Shown here in pieces: positions 7,411 through 18,116 of a DNA stretch of 64,000 nucleotides. Below the pieces are notes generated by a model. It was not told the origin of the DNA. It saw only the letters and a list, made by a program, of their open reading frames with translations, and ran no database searches. Each line of letters opens with the position of its first letter. The stretch's first letter is position 1. Made by a program: the position numbers and the translations under genes. Location: NCBI GenBank assembly GCA_963750165.1, contig CAVVPN010000003.1, positions 2,400,001 through 2,464,000 on the forward strand, written 5' to 3'. Origin of the DNA: an uncultured Gemmataceae bacterium. GTDB lineage: Bacteria > Planctomycetota > Planctomycetia > Gemmatales > Gemmataceae.

Positions 7411-7500
7411 CCCGAACCAGGTGTTGCACGTGACGGGCAATCTAAGGTCAATCTGAAAACAATAAGTCGAGCGGCCCGCTCGTGAACTTTGTTGTTCGGC
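7411..7500 (+). other. attC site 1
   Basis: CCCGAAC...GTTCGGC ends; inner arms ttgcacgtgacggg / cccgctcgtgaa with extrahelical-type bulges. Confidence 0.75.
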
Positions 7501-7524
7501 GACAGGCTCAAACGGGGGCCGAAA

Positions 7525-8109
7525 ATGCGAGTGCTTTTGCTTTCCATGTTCGTTATAGCTCTGCTCGCCCAATCAAATGCCATCGGTGGCGATGCCCCCA
7601 TTCCGCCCAAATCCTACACACAGACGTCTGCCGATGGCAAGTATGTGTTCGTGATGCTCGCTCCTAAGAAGTTCCGCGGCACGAACGATCCACGTTATCC
7701 CAAGAGCGGCCTATACAAGAACGATGGATCCAAGGAGCCACTGTGGACGGTTGACTGGTATTGTCGCGATGTGCTTGTCTCAACCAACGGCGATCACGTC
7801 GTGAGGATTGAGCGTGACTTGTTTACCGAGGCAGCGCTTGATGATCCGTTACGGCAAGAAGATCTCAAGCGAGTCGTCGTGGCAACCTACTGGCGTGGCA
7901 AACCCCTAACAGAGCAGACTCTCGGCAGCCTGGTCGCTCGTCCGGAACTTATTCGCCGGAAGTCAGGACCTGGAGCCTCAAAGCGCGTGATCTGGCTAGT
8001 TGGCGAGTCAAAGCTGTTGGAAAAGGAGCGCCGCTTTGAAATACCGACAGGTGATGGTCGTGTCGTCGTCTTGGATCTTGGCACCGGAAAAATAATCAAG
8101 AGGAATTGA
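7525..8109 (+). CDS. Cassette 2: hypothetical secreted protein
   Basis: Signal peptide MRVLLLSMFVIALLA; YPKSGLYKNDGSKEPLWTVDWY segment. Confidence 0.75.
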   Translation: MRVLLLSMFVIALLAQSNAIGGDAPIPPKSYTQTSADGKYVFVMLAPKKFRGTNDPRYPKSGLYKNDGSKEPLWTVDWYCRDVLVSTNGDHVVRIERDLFTEAALDDPLRQEDLKRVVVATYWRGKPLTEQTLGSLVARPELIRRKSGPGASKRVIWLVGESKLLEKERRFEIPTGDGRVVVLDLGTGKIIKRN

Positions 8110-8310
8110 AATAGGCGACGACTACGTAGGCCGCCGGGAAAAATCAAAGGGGTCGGGAGTCGATTCCGGAAAACATCAGAGCCGAACCAGAGTGCTGCTG
8201 CGGACGGGCCATCTGAGTCTACTCGGACACCTTAAGTCGAGTGGCCCGCCGCAGAGTTCTCCATGAAACCAATTTCCCCCTGATCGATGAAAAGGAGGCG
8301 AGCTAGGATA

Positions 8311-8484
8311 GAGGGCGTCTGGGGACGTGCTGTGGTCGTGACTTAGCTGGTGCATCGTGCCCGACGCAGAGTTGGACCCGGACGCCGCGAGGCACCCTGA
8401 TTTGGGCGCAGCGCCCATATGCCCGTGTGGGAGACTCCACCACCGCCGGCGTCTGCATGCTCCCTGGGCGTCTGGAGAACTCCG
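8311..8484 (+). ncRNA. Putative IS110 bridge RNA
   Basis: Non-coding left end with stems (ggcgtctggg/cccggacgcc; tgggcgc/gcgccca) and four short segments matching target and donor half-sites; exact ends uncertain. Confidence 0.55.
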
Positions 8485-9732
8485 ATGGACGCGCTGCTCC
8501 CTGTCGTGCTGACCATTTGCTGCGGCATTGATGTCCACAAGAAGACCCTGACCGCCTGCCTCTTGAAGTCGGGTGCCTCGGGCGATGCGCTCGTCGAGCG
8601 CCGGGTCTTTCGGACCATGACCAGCGCCTTGCAGGAGTTGGCGCAGTGGTTGGTGCAGGCGGACTGTCGGCACGTGGCCATCGAGAGCACCGGCGTGTAT
8701 TGGAAGCCGGTGTTCAACATCCTGGAGCAGGCCGGCATTGAGGTCGTCCTGGTCAACGCCCAGCACGTCAAGAACGTGCCCGGACGCAAGACCGATGTCA
8801 AGGATGCCGAGTGGCTCGCCACCCTGTTGCGTGTGGGCCTGTTGCGCAGTAGTTTCGTGCCCCCCAAGGAAATCCGGGAACTGCGGGACTTGACGCGCTA
8901 CCGCACGCAAGTGATCCGCCAGCGCGCCGACGAGAGCAACCGTATCCAGAAGTTGCTGGAGAACTGCAACATCAAGTTGGCCGGCGTGGCCAGCGACGTA
9001 CTGGGAGCCAGTGGCCGAGACATGTTACGCAGCCTGGCCGAGGGCGTGGACAGCCCCGCCGTACTGGCCAACCTGGCGCGGGGCCAGCTGCGTGCGAAGA
9101 TCCCGGAATTGGAGGAAGCGCTGCGCGGGGTGATGAGCGCGACGCAGCGCTGGTTGCTGCGGGAGCAATTACAGAAGGTGAGCGACCTGGACGACGCCAT
9201 CGTCCGCTTGGATGCGAAGATCGCCGAGGTGTGCCTCCCGTTCGCGCAGGCGCTCGCGCTGTTGGACCAGATTCCCGGGGTGAACCAGCGGACGGCGCAG
9301 GTGATCGTGGCGGAGGTCGGCCTGGACATGAGCCGCTTTCAATCGGAGGGGCAGTTGGCGTCGTGGGCGGGGATGTGTCCAGGCAACCACGAGAGCGCTG
9401 GCAAGCAGAAGAGCGGCAAGACGCGCAAGGGCAACCGCTGGCTGCGGCAGGCGCTGGTGGAGGCGGCGCGGGGAGCGGCGAACACCAAGGAGAGCAGTCT
9501 GCGGGCGACGTACCATCGGATCAAGGCACGCCGCGGGGACAAGCGGGCCTGCCTGGCGGTGGGGCACCGGATCTTGCGGATGGCCTACACACTACTGAGC
9601 AAGCGCCGGCCGTACCAGGAAGAGGGGCCGGACTATTACCGGACGGCAGACAAGGACCGGCTGAAGGAGAGGCTGGTGCGGCGGCTGCAGAGAATGGGCT
9701 ATGAGGTGACCGTGGCGGAACCGGCGGCCTGA
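8485..9732 (+). CDS. IS110-family DEDD recombinase/transposase
   Basis: GIDVHKK, AIESTGVYW, KTDVKDA, IPGVN, WAGMCPGNHESAGK (catalytic Ser), GNRWLR; GGAG before ATG 8485. Confidence 0.95.
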   Translation: MDALLPVVLTICCGIDVHKKTLTACLLKSGASGDALVERRVFRTMTSALQELAQWLVQADCRHVAIESTGVYWKPVFNILEQAGIEVVLVNAQHVKNVPGRKTDVKDAEWLATLLRVGLLRSSFVPPKEIRELRDLTRYRTQVIRQRADESNRIQKLLENCNIKLAGVASDVLGASGRDMLRSLAEGVDSPAVLANLARGQLRAKIPELEEALRGVMSATQRWLLREQLQKVSDLDDAIVRLDAKIAEVCLPFAQALALLDQIPGVNQRTAQVIVAEVGLDMSRFQSEGQLASWAGMCPGNHESAGKQKSGKTRKGNRWLRQALVEAARGAANTKESSLRATYHRIKARRGDKRACLAVGHRILRMAYTLLSKRRPYQEEGPDYYRTADKDRLKERLVRRLQRMGYEVTVAEPAA

Positions 9733-9857
9733 GCAGGACCACCCACGACGGTCCCCTCGGTGGACACAGTCCCAGAAATACATTTTCGTGGGAGCTATGT
9801 CGTTCGGCGGCGGAGAGGCGGCTGTAGATTTACTATCTTGCAGACAGAGAGGATCTC

Positions 9858-10418
9858 ATGAAAGCGACAAGTGCAACCGCTACGGCATCCCTACTGCTAA
9901 TCGCCGCGCTACTGGCCGCGCGGTCTGGGGCGGCCCAGCCGCCAAAGGCGGACCAGCCCCCGGCCGGCGCGAAGACCCTTTCGGCGGACGACGACAAGGC
10001 CATCCGGCAGGTGATTCGCGGGATCGAGCAGGCGTGGAACGCCCACGACATGGACGCCTACGCCCGGCTGCTCCGGCCAGACGTCGAGTGGGTCAACGTC
10101 GTGGGCATGCACTGGCGCGGCCGGGACGACGTGATGCTCGCCCACAGAGCATTCCACAAAACGACCTTCAAGAACCACCACATCAAGACCGACGACATCC
10201 ACCTCCGCCCGCTCTGTCCCGGCTACGCGATCGCCGTGGTGACGACCACGAACGACGCGTTCACCGCGCCGGACGGTCGCGTCATCGACAAGAGGCAAGA
10301 TCGGCAGACCTACGTGTTGAGCAAAGAGGCCGACGGGTGGAAGATCGCCCACTGTGAGAACGTGTGGGTAGACGCCGAGGCGGCGAAGCACGACCCGGTG
10401 AAAAGCAAGAAGAAGTAG
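9858..10418 (+). CDS. Cassette 3: secreted SgcJ/EcaC-like NTF2/SnoaL-fold protein
   Basis: AWNAHDMDAY, DVEWVNVVGMHWRGR, GWKIAHCEN; signal peptide. Confidence 0.85.
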   Translation: MKATSATATASLLLIAALLAARSGAAQPPKADQPPAGAKTLSADDDKAIRQVIRGIEQAWNAHDMDAYARLLRPDVEWVNVVGMHWRGRDDVMLAHRAFHKTTFKNHHIKTDDIHLRPLCPGYAIAVVTTTNDAFTAPDGRVIDKRQDRQTYVLSKEADGWKIAHCENVWVDAEAAKHDPVKSKKK

Positions 10419-16793: not shown

Positions 16794-16888
16794 GCCGAAC
16801 CCGCCGTTGCACGAAACCGGGCGCGCCTCCCGGTCCCTCTGACGGTGAGTCGGCCCAGCGCGCCCGGTTCGTGAACTCTGCGTTCGGC
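16794..16888 (+). other. attC site 4 (cassette 4, 16511-16793, has no convincing ORF)
   Basis: GCCGAAC...ttgcacgaaaccgggcgcgc / gcgcgcccggttcgtgaa...GTTCGGC. Confidence 0.8.
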
Positions 16889-17319: not shown

Positions 17320-17418
17320 GCCGAACCAACGGATGAAGCTGACCGGGGCCGCCATCCTGGTTTCGCGCGGCATGAAGGTCTTGCAGGCGGCCCCGGCAGC
17401 TTATCCTTATCGTTCGGC
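17320..17418 (+). other. attC site 5
   Basis: GCCGAAC...ggatgaagctgaccggggccgcc / ggcggccccggcagcttatcc...GTTCGGC. Confidence 0.85.
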
Positions 17419-18019: not shown

Positions 18020-18116
18020 GCCGAACCAGCCGTTGCAGCAGACAGGGCGGGCAGCACGGCTTTCCGAGGTTCAACGTCTTTCCAGCCCGCCCTGCTGCTG
18101 AACTGGGTCGTTCGGC
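18020..18116 (+). other. attC site 6
   Basis: GCCGAAC...ttgcagcagacagggcgggc / gcccgccctgctgctgaa...GTTCGGC. Confidence 0.85.

What the first reader, a model, noticed from the sequence alone, without database searches (positions are those of the whole stretch)
8311..8484. Readable bridge-RNA-like guides in the IS110 left end, with unusual guide order
Seen: the pre-insertion target is ccgcagAGctatgtc and the circular donor junction is cgtgggAGttctcca. The non-coding left end contains GACTTAGCT (8340-8348; 8/9 match to the reverse complement of the right target half), CGCAGAG (8365-8371; left target half), GTGGGAG (8427-8433; left donor half) and TGGAGAACT (8473-8481; exact reverse complement of the right donor half). 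The last overlaps the transposase RBS. The two target matches lie inside a ggcgtctggg/cccggacgcc stem. Known: IS621 bridge RNA has the order LTG-RTG-LDG-RDG. Inference: the order here reads RTG-LTG-LDG-RDG, a possible variant architecture programmed for attC sites. Each match is short, so any one could be chance.
Basis: partly seen in the sequence, partly recalled or inferred. Interest (0 to 1): 0.78.

Follow-up and report, generated by a model that had tools for sequence, protein, structure and literature searches.

The report
Mirror-image bridge RNA in IS110 element
The stretch encodes the guide RNA of a jumping gene that aims itself at integron recombination sites, and its guide segments are arranged as a mirror image of the textbook example, a layout shared by a large family of relatives.

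Summary
An IS110-family element (8257-9794) sits in an attC-like repeat. Empty sites elsewhere in the genome confirm the target. All four matches exist at the stated coordinates; together they occurred in 0 of 20000 shuffles.

Three matches are genuine guides, shown by covariation in about 50 relatives and again in a held-out metagenome set:
- 8340-8348 is antisense to the right target.
- 8365-8371 is a sense copy of the left target, followed by a 2-nt handshake (8372-8373).
- 8427-8433 is a sense copy of the right end of the element.

They lie in two covariation-supported arms enclosed by a long-range helix.

The fourth match (8473-8481, on the RBS) does not covary in the family or in the closest relative.

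The order is therefore not a hybrid. In both arms the sense guide lies 3' of the inner hairpin, the mirror of IS621. The core AG reads CT on the other strand. No RNA guide for the left-end start was found.

The same guide order is published for IS1111-type seekRNAs, but those lie downstream of the transposase gene. The layout is family-wide, not attC-specific; only this lineage's guides spell an attC-like site.

Verdict: a variant of a known kind, of moderate interest.

The parts
8181..8256 (+). Left part of the attC-like target repeat: GCCGAAC box at 8181-8187; left target CGCAGAG at 8250-8256 with core AG at 8255-8256
   Evidence: Unoccupied copies of the repeat and the two other occupied copies. 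Regex census of CCGAAC..GTTCGG repeats. An integron integrase lies next to the array that holds the other two copies.
8257..9794 (+). IS110-family insertion sequence, 1538 bp, counting one copy of the core at its right end
   Evidence: Three 99% identical copies with identical junctions.
8262..8276 (+). Sub-terminal CATG plus a small hairpin (GAAA 8265-8268 / TTTC 8273-8276) at the start of the left end. It is a family-wide feature placed 4-5 nt after the core.
   Evidence: Seen by eye in the alignments. The first 36 nt of the left end fold better than the shuffled mean in 49 of 57 loci. No formal pair count was made.
8286..8294 (+). Box GATGAAAAG. The family consensus GATGAAAAT is the inverted repeat of ATTTTC near the right end.
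   Evidence: A box of this type is present in 43 of 57 left ends, at a median 31 nt from the end. Its role was not tested.
8311..8330 (+). P1, 5' strand of the long-range helix that encloses both arms. It pairs with 8455-8472.
   Evidence: Duplex energy with the own partner is -20.85 versus -12.76 kcal/mol with permuted partners (z -12.4, 0 of 200 permutations as good, 26 of 53 rows with enough flank). In WIN it is -27.1 kcal/mol.
8334..8337 (+). Target arm closing stem, 5' strand (GGTC). It pairs with 8375-8378 (GACC).
   Evidence: All 4 of 4 pairs show compensatory changes; 94.8% of cells are paired.
8340..8348 (+). Right-target guide (antisense to core plus right target), on the 5' strand of the target loop
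   Evidence: 8 of 9 to the WIN site, 8 of 9 and 7 of 9 to the other two copies' sites. Family: own 5.55 of 9 versus permuted 4.39, z 10.4. Held-out set: 5.12 versus 3.82, z 8.5, 0 of 300 permutations as good.
8348..8363 (+). Inner hairpin of the target arm (family motif UGGUGC..GAGCCCG with an invariant U.G pair)
   Evidence: 5 pairs, 98.5% of cells paired, U.G in 53 of 53 rows.
8365..8371 (+). Left-target guide (sense copy of left target plus core), on the 3' strand of the target loop
   Evidence: Exact in WIN. Held-out set: 7 of 7 in 46 of 64 loci, against 52 of 3134 permuted pairings.
8372..8373 (+). Handshake-like dinucleotide TT, identical to the first two bases of the left end
   Evidence: Both bases identical in 49 of 57 loci (permuted mean 7.35, maximum 15) and in 41 of 59 held-out loci. 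Mutual information 1.28 and 1.34. These columns were not used to place the junction.
8380..8387 (+). Donor arm closing stem, 5' strand. It pairs with 8447-8454.
   Evidence: All 8 of 8 pairs show compensatory changes.
8403..8425 (+). Inner hairpin of the donor arm (family motif UGUUGC..GAGCACG; UGGGC..GCCCG in this lineage)
   Evidence: 5 pairs, 100% of cells paired. The pair A-U in L012 against G-C in WIN is compensatory.
8427..8433 (+). Left-donor guide (sense copy of the right end plus core), on the 3' strand of the donor loop
   Evidence: Exact in WIN. First set: at least 7 of 8 in 67 of 71 loci. Held-out set: 7 of 7 in 51 of 58 loci, against 41 of 2765 permuted pairings.
8473..8483 (+). 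Complement of the left-end start (9 nt; 11 nt against the circle junction). It overlaps the Shine-Dalgarno GGAG and lies directly 3' of P1. Its role is open.
   Evidence: Exact. It occurred in 23 of 20000 shuffles. There is no family covariation and no compensation in L173.
8485..9732 (+). DEDD transposase / bridge recombinase gene, 415 aa
   Evidence: Pfam DEDD_Tnp_IS110 at 4e-37 and Transposase_20 at 6.5e-23. NCBIfam NF033542, 285.2 bits against a cut-off of 140.
9733..9794 (+). Short right end. It ends TTTTC (9783-9787) then GTGGG, then the core AG (9793-9794).
   Evidence: The family right end is ATTTTC, then 5 variable nt, then the core.
9795..9808 (+). Right part of the attC-like target: CTATGTC, then the GTTCGGC box at 9802-9808

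Best explanation
Window 8311-8472 encodes the bridge RNA (seekRNA) of an IS110-family insertion sequence. It is transcribed on the transposase strand.

Fold. The RNA folds into a long-range helix P1 that encloses two arms of like build: closing stem, 5' loop strand, conserved inner hairpin, 3' loop strand.

Target arm. [quoted passage not shown] The next two bases (8372-8373) match the first two bases of the element, as a handshake guide would after strand exchange.

Donor arm. [quoted passage not shown]

Polarity. This is the IS621 scheme seen in a mirror. If the DNA is read on the other strand the core becomes CT (family: CT, GT, TT) and every guide falls in its IS621 place. The RNA and transposase genes then point the other way relative to the recombination site. 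By inference, the strand exchanged first is the bottom strand in transposase orientation.

Targeting. In this lineage the target guides spell a position between the inner and outer boxes of an attC-like repeat, so the element inserts into integron cassette sites in one orientation.

Open points. No RNA guide for the left-end start was found. That side may be read by the protein through a conserved CATG-hairpin (inferred). The RBS-overlapping complement at 8473-8483 is more likely a fold-back that hides the ribosome site in read-through transcripts than a donor guide (inferred).

Shown here: anatomy, covariation, structure. Inferred: transcription, binding, order of strand exchange.
For: Element and target: three 99% identical copies and unoccupied sites. 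Transposase family.

Guides beyond chance: all four words together in 0 of 20000 shuffles.

Covariation, first set. Of 80 loci fetched, 78 had distinct upstream sequences, 71 were alignable, 57 had both junctions placed, and 53 carried distinct guide sets.
- The LT guide matches its own left junction just before the conserved CATG.
- The LD guide matches at least 7 of 8 in 67 of 71 loci.
- The RT guide scores z 10.4 against permuted pairings.
- 19 of the 36 hits of at least 6 of 7 fall at WIN 8336-8343.
- Handshake identical in 49 of 57 loci against 7.35 expected.

Held-out metagenome set, aligned by a covariance model built only from the first set:
- LT 7 of 7 in 46 of 64 loci, against 52 of 3134 permuted pairings.
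- LD 7 of 7 in 51 of 58 loci, against 41 of 2765 permuted pairings.
- RT guide z 8.5, 0 of 300 permutations as good.
- Handshake identical in 41 of 59 loci.

Closest relative L173 (89% aa): the LT guide changed to AGGTGAG and its flank reads CAGGTGAG|TT.

Structure: 22 pairs, 92.8% of cells paired against 80.7% in shuffles (0 of 500 as high). 19 pairs have changes on both sides. Slid controls give 34-54%. P1 z -12.4.

The model hits the window once, at 8311-8463 on the + strand, 72.7 bits, E 4.7e-12.

Strand: two invariant U.G pairs (53 of 53 each) would be C.A on the other strand.

Mirror: cores are AG 46, AC 7, AA 3, TG 1, and agree between the two junctions in 56 of 57 loci. IS621 has LTG at nt 50-58, 5' of RTG at 77-80, and LDG at 123-130, 5' of RDG at 157-165. 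The second T of its core is almost invariant (PMC11208158, passages). Its right end lies 5' and its left end 3' of the CT core (PMC11208160 methods passage).

attC: integron integrase at 426.5 bits (cut-off 265) beside the array that carries two of the copies. attC-like repeats in the window.
Against: No transcript evidence: no RNA run holds the stretch. No sigma-70-like promoter was found in the linear form or across the computed circle junction (best 8 of 12). Rfam has no match.

The minimum-free-energy fold of the whole left end is no better than shuffles (z -0.18).

The RT guide is loose. Only 12 of 52 held-out loci reach 6 of 7, and the two 74-75% relatives L011 and L012 match their right flanks poorly.

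The mirror model predicts a guide for the left-end start on the 5' strand of the donor loop. A weak signal there (z 3.7-3.9) did not replicate (z -1.0). WIN itself matches poorly there (5 of 11).

The donor arm has no handshake signal: the first nt agrees in 16 of 55 loci against 13.1 expected.

Related sequences are not independent, so the z-scores overstate the evidence.

The junctions were placed with the LT and LD guides themselves. For those two guides the independent evidence is that the match lands next to conserved anchors (CATG; ATTTTC), together with the permuted-pairing controls.
Confidence: 0.85

Rival explanations
1. 8473-8481 is a working right-donor guide, so this RNA has a hybrid order RTG-LTG-LDG-RDG, with the donor guides in IS621 order and the RDG lying outside the donor arm on the RBS.
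For: The match is a perfect 9 nt, or 11 nt against the circle junction. It occurred in only 23 of 20000 shuffles. It lies directly 3' of P1. No other guide for the left-end start was found in WIN.
Against: The tail does not covary with the left-end start in 53 guide sets (z -0.1 to 0.2). WIN is the only one of 57 loci above 7 of 9. L173 (89% aa) changed TTCTCC to TTCCGC while its tail reads GGAGGATCT, 6 of 9 to the complement of its own start, with neither changed base compensated. Four of the nine bases are the Shine-Dalgarno GGAG, which relatives also carry. In the mirror frame this guide belongs on the 5' strand of the donor loop.
Confidence: 0.18
2. 8473-8483 is a fold-back element. In transcripts that read into the element from the cassette array or across the circle junction, the left-end start pairs with the RBS and keeps transposase translation low. 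This is the kind of protection from outside transcription that I recall for IS10 (recalled, not looked up). It can hold alongside the main explanation.
For: The element lies in the same orientation as the flanking cassette ORFs 7489-8109 and 9858-10418. The minimum-free-energy fold pairs UUCUCC at the 5' end with GGAGAA at the RBS. The family's conserved hairpin begins 6 nt into the left end, which suggests RNA may start at or before the end.
Against: It is not conserved in relatives. There is no expression data. The IS10 precedent is recalled, not checked here.
Confidence: 0.35
3. The internal copies of the junction sequences act at the DNA level, as extra transposase-binding sites or relics of nested insertions. 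On this view there is no guide RNA, or the RNA is made from the opposite strand.
For: There is no direct transcript evidence here. No promoter was found.
Against: Two of the segments track DNA outside the element (LT, RT), which a binding site for the element's own ends would not do. The segments sit in loops of helices kept by compensatory changes. Invariant U.G pairs fit only the + strand. RNA guidance is shown experimentally for IS621, ISEc21 and four IS1111-type elements (PMC11208160 and PMC11187229, passages and sections read).
Confidence: 0.03

Closest known systems
IS621 bridge RNA (IS110 group; Durrant et al. 2024, Hiraizumi et al. 2024)
   Same: The RNA is non-coding and lies upstream of a DEDD recombinase gene. 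It has two loops of like build: stem, guide, hairpin, guide. One loop reads the target and one reads the donor. Both strands are read and the core is included. A 2-nt handshake follows the 3' guide of the target loop. The core reads CT/GT/TT, with its second base invariant, when read on the appropriate strand.
   Different: Guide polarity is inverted relative to the RNA and transposase orientation: the antisense guide lies 5' and the sense guide 3' in the target arm, and the sense guide lies 3' in the donor arm. The core reads AG on the RNA-sense strand. A long helix P1 encloses both arms. The transposase is 415 aa, against 326 aa for IS621 (the figure given in 10.64898/2026.08.14.744561, passage). 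No covarying guide for the left-end start and no donor-arm handshake were found. There is no Rfam or sequence match.
IS1111-type seekRNA (ISEc11, ISKpn4, ISPst6, ISPa11; Siddiquee et al. 2024)
   Same: The complement of the top strand lies 5' of the bottom-strand match, the order seen here (PMC11187229, abstract and sections 9 and 12). ISKpn4 and ISPst6 also insert at a fixed point a few bases 5' of the GTT box of attC sites (target given in PMC13604230, Table 1).
   Different: In those elements the RNA lies downstream of the transposase gene, the transposases are 330-350 aa, and the sub-terminal inverted repeats are longer. Here the RNA is upstream and the protein is 415 aa, the size range that paper gives for the subgroup containing IS110 itself (395-455 aa, PMC11187229, section 6).
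ISEc21 seekRNA (IS110 type)
   Same: The non-coding region lies upstream, and short matches to both target strands lie in one small RNA.
   Different: ISEc21 has the bottom-strand match 5' of the top-strand match (PMC11187229, section 12), the opposite of this family.
IS1111-attC group (Tetu and Holmes 2008; Post and Hall 2009; seen only as references in PMC11187229)
   Same: Orientation-specific insertion into attC sites of integron cassettes.
   Different: It is a different branch of the family by gene order and protein size. The attC targeting here appears to be an independent re-aiming of the guides, since relatives with the same RNA build sit in unrelated targets.

Membership tests
IS110-family bridge RNA / seekRNA (general) | Non-coding region next to a DEDD (RuvC-like plus Tnp) recombinase gene, inside the element | tested here: met
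   Pfam and NCBIfam hits. The left end is 228 nt and the right end 62 nt.
IS110-family bridge RNA / seekRNA (general) | [quoted passage not shown] | tested here: met
   LT guide 7 of 7 in 46 of 64 held-out loci. RT guide z 10.4 and z 8.5.
IS110-family bridge RNA / seekRNA (general) | Conserved secondary structure with the guides in internal loops | tested here: met
   22 pairs, 19 with compensatory changes, 0 of 500 shuffles as good. P1 supported.
IS110-family bridge RNA / seekRNA (general) | The RNA is made and binds the recombinase | not testable with these tools
   No RNA run holds the stretch.
IS621-type bridge RNA | Order LTG then RTG, and LDG then RDG, on the RNA, with core CT on the RNA-sense strand | tested here: not met
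   The order here is RT guide, LT guide..., LD guide, and the core is AG on the sense strand. IS621 positions come from PMC11208158.
IS621-type bridge RNA | Both donor halves read by guides in the donor loop | tested here: inconclusive
   The LD guide is met. The RD guide gave z 3.7-3.9 in one set and z -1.0 in the other.
IS621-type bridge RNA | Handshake guides after the 3' guide of each loop | tested here: inconclusive
   Target arm met: 49 of 57 and 41 of 59. Donor arm not seen: 16 of 55 against 13.1 expected.
IS1111-type seekRNA | RNA encoded downstream of the transposase gene | tested here: not met
   The covariance-model hit lies upstream of tnp in the window and in 65 held-out loci.
IS1111-type seekRNA | Top-strand complement 5' of the bottom-strand match | tested here: met
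   definition from PMC11187229.
IS1111-type seekRNA | Sub-terminal inverted repeats of 7-17 bp | tested here: inconclusive
   WIN has CCATGAAAC (8261-8269) against TTTTCGTGG (9783-9791), 8 of 9 by eye. Family-wide, the ATTTTC of the right end mirrors a box about 31 nt inside the left end. This was not compared with IS1111 repeats.
attC site of an integron | Imperfect palindrome with outer boxes RYYYAAC and GTTRRRY, repeated between cassettes, next to an integron integrase | tested here: met
   GCCGAAC at 8181-8187 and GTTCGGC at 9802-9808. Repeats with small ORFs between them. intI scores above its cut-off beside the array that holds two copies. The window's own cluster has no integrase nearby. 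No attC covariance model was run.

The most novel reading that the evidence does not exclude
A large, phylum-spanning clade of upstream-RNA IS110 elements (transposases of about 400-415 aa, the size class of IS110 itself) uses a bridge RNA whose polarity is inverted relative to IS621. On this reading, recombination starts on the opposite strand with respect to the transposase gene. The clade has also given up an RNA guide for its left-end start and reads that side through a conserved CATG-hairpin plus a 2-nt handshake. The layout would be a missing link between the IS110-type and IS1111-type arrangements. In this genome it has been re-aimed at integron attC sites independently of the IS1111-attC group.
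Probability: 0.35. Interest if true: 0.65.

Novelty: new variant of a known kind. Interest (0 to 1): 0.5.

Why it matters
Bridge RNAs are being engineered as programmable recombinases, and the design rules come almost wholly from IS621 and its close relatives. A widespread family with the same parts in mirrored polarity would widen those rules in three ways. It has an enclosing helix, a 7-nt sense guide plus handshake on the 3' strand, and apparently only one donor guide. It would also bear on how the IS110 and IS1111 arrangements are related.

For integron biology, it shows a second, independent lineage of RNA-guided elements that parks in attC sites. Three of the eight sites in this genome that match the LT guide word plus CT and carry the GTTCGG box five bases further on are occupied. 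Occupation could block or reshape cassette exchange.

The caveat is that surveys with many covariance models already exist (PMC11208160, section 12; 10.64898/2026.10.21.760802, section 8). They may show this layout in figures I could not see.

Tried and rejected
- Rfam at a permissive threshold over 8000-10000 gave only two chance lncRNA matches.
- The whole-left-end minimum-free-energy fold is no better than shuffles. The structure emerged only from comparison.
- Search for a guide to the left-end start: an unbiased k-mer scan over the left-end alignment, column-wise mutual information anchored on the core and on CATG, and region tests on the tail, the donor 5' strand, the stretch after the LD guide, the 5' region and the inner hairpin. 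Only the donor 5' strand gave a weak signal, and it failed in the held-out set.
- The donor-arm handshake was not seen.
- Sigma-70-like promoter scan: none in the linear form; best 8 of 12, and inside the right end, on the computed circle junction.
- No RNA holder was listed for the element.
- Closer relatives in the same taxonomic family: 2 of 150 other genomes had a match, at 73-75% identity.
- Placing the transposase among named IS: the plasmid tblastn gave only the generic label 'IS110 family transposase'. Supplement file 3 of PMC11208160 (stored cut) holds look-alike rows, one of them named ISSsu10, but no RNA data. No tree was built, so the position relative to IS1111 and IS110 proper is inferred from gene order and protein length only.
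- Earlier findings of this scan: two look-ups, nothing returned.
- Literature on a mirrored order in upstream-RNA elements: searches, and the passages read, gave no such statement. Figures and bioRxiv supplements could not be seen.

Full report
**What is there**

The finding lies in the left end of an insertion sequence that spans window 8257-9794.
- Its only long ORF (8485-9732, 415 aa) carries the two domains of IS110-family recombinases: DEDD_Tnp_IS110 at 4e-37 and Transposase_20 at 6.5e-23. It scores 285.2 bits against the NCBIfam model 'IS110 family RNA-guided transposase', cut-off 140.
- The genome holds three copies, 99% identical.
- All three sit at the same point and in the same orientation in a roughly 110-bp repeat.
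- Unoccupied copies of that repeat read ...GTGGCCCGCCGCAGAGCTATGTCGTTCGGC.
- The sequence shared by the two junctions is GAG, so the two-base core could be AG or GA. Family data fit AG.

**The target is an attC-like site**

- The repeat has the outer boxes GCCGAAC (8181-8187) and GTTCGGC (9802-9808), and small ORFs lie between its copies.
- The other two copies of the element lie in an array that ends at an integron integrase gene: TIGR02249 at 426.5 bits, cut-off 265, at G000:C4:1198898-1199845.
- The window's own cluster of such repeats has no integrase nearby.
- Five unoccupied sites in the genome carry CGCAGAGCT, five bases, then GTTCGG; three are occupied.
- I ran no attC covariance model, so 'attC-like' is the careful wording.

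**The four matches**

All four are at the stated coordinates and all are anchored on the core. In 20000 dinucleotide-preserving shuffles of the left end:
- the LT word occurred 404 times;
- the LD word 839 times;
- the RD word 23 times;
- the RT word with one mismatch allowed 241 times;
- all four together never.

**Relatives**

- A scan of one genome per species found 555 stretches encoding a relative among 606 candidates. The best 80 were kept, at 41-75% amino-acid identity, from Planctomycetota, Chloroflexota, Acidobacteriota, Actinomycetota, Bacillota and others.
- Of 78 distinct upstream sequences I dropped 7: six were misaligned and one had no downstream DNA.
- Of the remaining 71, 57 had both junctions placed with at most one mismatch, giving 53 distinct guide sets.
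- A second set of 79 metagenome loci was kept aside as a test set.

**Structure**

The alignment shows a common build.
- Each of two arms has a closing stem, a 5' loop strand, a conserved inner hairpin (UGGUGC..GAGCCCG in the first arm, UGUUGC..GAGCACG in the second) and a 3' loop strand.
- On 53 sequences, 22 hand-placed pairs are 92.8% paired, against 80.7% in column shuffles (0 of 500 as high).
- 19 pairs have changes on both sides.
- Slid controls give 34-54%.
- A long-range helix P1 encloses both arms. The mean duplex energy is -20.85 kcal/mol with the own partner and -12.76 with permuted partners, 0 of 200 permutations as good. This rests on the 26 of 53 rows that had enough flank.
- In the window the helices are P1 8311-8330/8455-8472, target arm 8334-8337/8375-8378, and donor arm 8380-8387/8447-8454.
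It is not supported.
- Two invariant U.G pairs fit only the transposase strand.
- A covariance model built from the first set hits the 64-kb window once, at 8311-8463 on the + strand, 72.7 bits, E 4.7e-12. It hits just upstream of the transposase gene in 65 held-out loci.

**Guides**

*Left-target guide.* The 3' strand of the first arm (window 8364-8373) is a sense copy of the left flank plus core.
- In the held-out set it matches 7 of 7 in 46 of 64 loci and 6 of 7 in 13 more.
- Permuted pairings reached 7 of 7 in 52 of 3134 cases.
- The match always lands 4-6 nt before a conserved CATG at the start of the left end.

*Handshake.* The next two bases equal the first two bases of the element.
- This holds in 49 of 57 loci (permuted mean 7.35) and in 41 of 59 held-out loci.
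- These columns were not used to place the junction.

*Left-donor guide.* The 3' strand of the second arm (8426-8433) is a sense copy of the right end plus core.
- It matches at least 7 of 8 in 67 of 71 loci.
- It matches 7 of 7 in 51 of 58 held-out loci, against 41 of 2765 permuted pairings.
- The family right end reads ATTTTC, five variable bases, then the core.

*Right-target guide.* The 5' strand of the first arm (8339-8348) is antisense to core plus right flank.
- First set: own 5.55 of 9 against 4.39 permuted, z 10.4.
- Held-out set: 5.12 against 3.82, z 8.5, 0 of 300 permutations as good.
- This guide is looser than the other two. Only 12 of 52 held-out loci reach 6 of 7, and the relatives L011 and L012 fit poorly.

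*Closest relative.* L173 (89% identity over 171 residues) has the left-target guide AGGTGAG-TT and the flank CAGGTGAG|TT.

**The fourth match**

The tail of the left end (8453-8484) shows no covariation with the left-end start (z -0.1 to 0.2).
- Among 57 loci the best complement in the last 45 nt is 4-6 of 9 in 55 loci, 7 in one, and 9 only in the window.
- L173 changed its left-end start from TTCTCC to TTCCGC, but its tail reads GGAGGATCT. That is 6 of 9 to the complement of its own start, and neither changed base is compensated.
- Four of the nine bases are the ribosome-binding GGAG, which relatives also carry.
- The match is still unlikely by luck in this one sequence (23 of 20000 shuffles). 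I keep two functional readings open: a lineage-specific guide, and a fold-back that hides the ribosome site in transcripts entering from the cassette array. I favour the second.

**No guide for the left-end start**

- A weak signal on the 5' strand of the donor arm (z 3.7-3.9) did not replicate (z -1.0).
- Column-wise tests found nothing.
- The left end begins with 4-5 variable bases, then CATG and a small hairpin. The first 36 nt fold better than shuffles in 49 of 57 loci.
- This could be a protein-read feature. That is inference.

**How it compares**

*IS621.*
- LTG (nt 50-58) lies 5' and RTG (77-80, then the handshake at 81-82) lies 3' of the target-loop hairpin.
- LDG (123-130) lies 5' and RDG (157-165) lies 3' in the donor loop.
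- LTG and LDG pair with bottom strands, RTG and RDG with top strands.
- The second T of the CT core is almost invariant (PMC11208158, passages).
- On the RNA-sense strand the right end lies 5' and the left end 3' of the CT core (PMC11208160, methods passage).

*This family.*
- The sense guides lie 3' in both arms.
- The cores are AG (46), AC (7), AA (3) and TG (1), agreeing between the two junctions in 56 of 57 loci.
- Read on the other strand these become CT, GT and TT, and every guide, with the handshake, falls in its IS621 place.

*IS1111-type seekRNAs.* The order 'top-strand complement first' is published for these, in contrast to the IS110-type ISEc21 (PMC11187229: abstract, sections 6, 9, 12; PMC13604230, Table 1). 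Those RNAs lie downstream of 330-350 aa transposases. This family has the RNA upstream and a 415 aa protein, the size class given there for the subgroup around IS110 itself.

*Published surveys.*
- In the passages and sections I read, I found no statement of a mirrored order in upstream-RNA elements (searches; reading).
- Two surveys built many covariance models and report structures that 'visibly deviate' from IS621 while still covarying with their DNA (PMC11208160, section 12; 10.64898/2026.10.21.760802, section 8).
- Their figures and the preprint supplements were not visible to me.
- Look-alike proteins, one named ISSsu10, are in the first paper's tree table.

**Verdict**

The stretch encodes a bridge RNA, and three of the four guides are real. 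The fourth guide and the stem are not supported.

The unusual order is real, but it is a family trait and a full mirror of IS621, not an attC-specific hybrid. What is specific to this lineage is the spelling of the target guides, which aim the element at integron attC-like sites.

I file it as a new variant of a known kind, of moderate interest. Nothing here shows transcription or activity.

Noticed in passing
window 7412-7499, 16795-16887, 17321-17417, 18021-18115: Further attC-like repeats (CCGAAC ... GTTCGG, 88-97 bp) on the + strand with small ORFs between them. This is a cassette cluster with no integron integrase in the neighbourhood.
   Followed up: partly
G000:C4:1198898-1199845 (L091) and G000:C4:1190279-1190728 (L092): A full integron integrase gene (426.5 bits, cut-off 265) lies at the end of a cassette array of about 45 kb that carries the other two copies of the element. 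A second, partial integrase-like match (175 bits, below cut-off) lies 8 kb away.
   Followed up: partly
L004:1208-1371 (G000:C3, about 527 kb): A second, diverged member of the same IS family in this genome (67% nucleotide identity in the gene). The covariance model scores it 94.5 bits. Its own guides match its own junctions, and it does not sit in an attC-like repeat.
   Followed up: partly
L115:1603-1771, L166:1471-1627, L138:1992-2154, L107:1371-1524: In four metagenome loci the RNA model hits a second time, downstream of the transposase gene. These may be adjacent or tandem elements.
   Followed up: no
window 8286-8294 and 9782-9787: A family-wide box GATGAAAAT about 31 nt inside the left end (43 of 57 loci) is the inverted repeat of the conserved ATTTTC just inside the right end. 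It could be a sub-terminal repeat or a promoter part.
   Followed up: partly
window 8314-8321, 8448-8455, 8467-8474: GGCGTCTG occurs three times in the left end. Each copy can pair with GGACGCC at 8380-8386, so alternative folds are possible.
   Followed up: no
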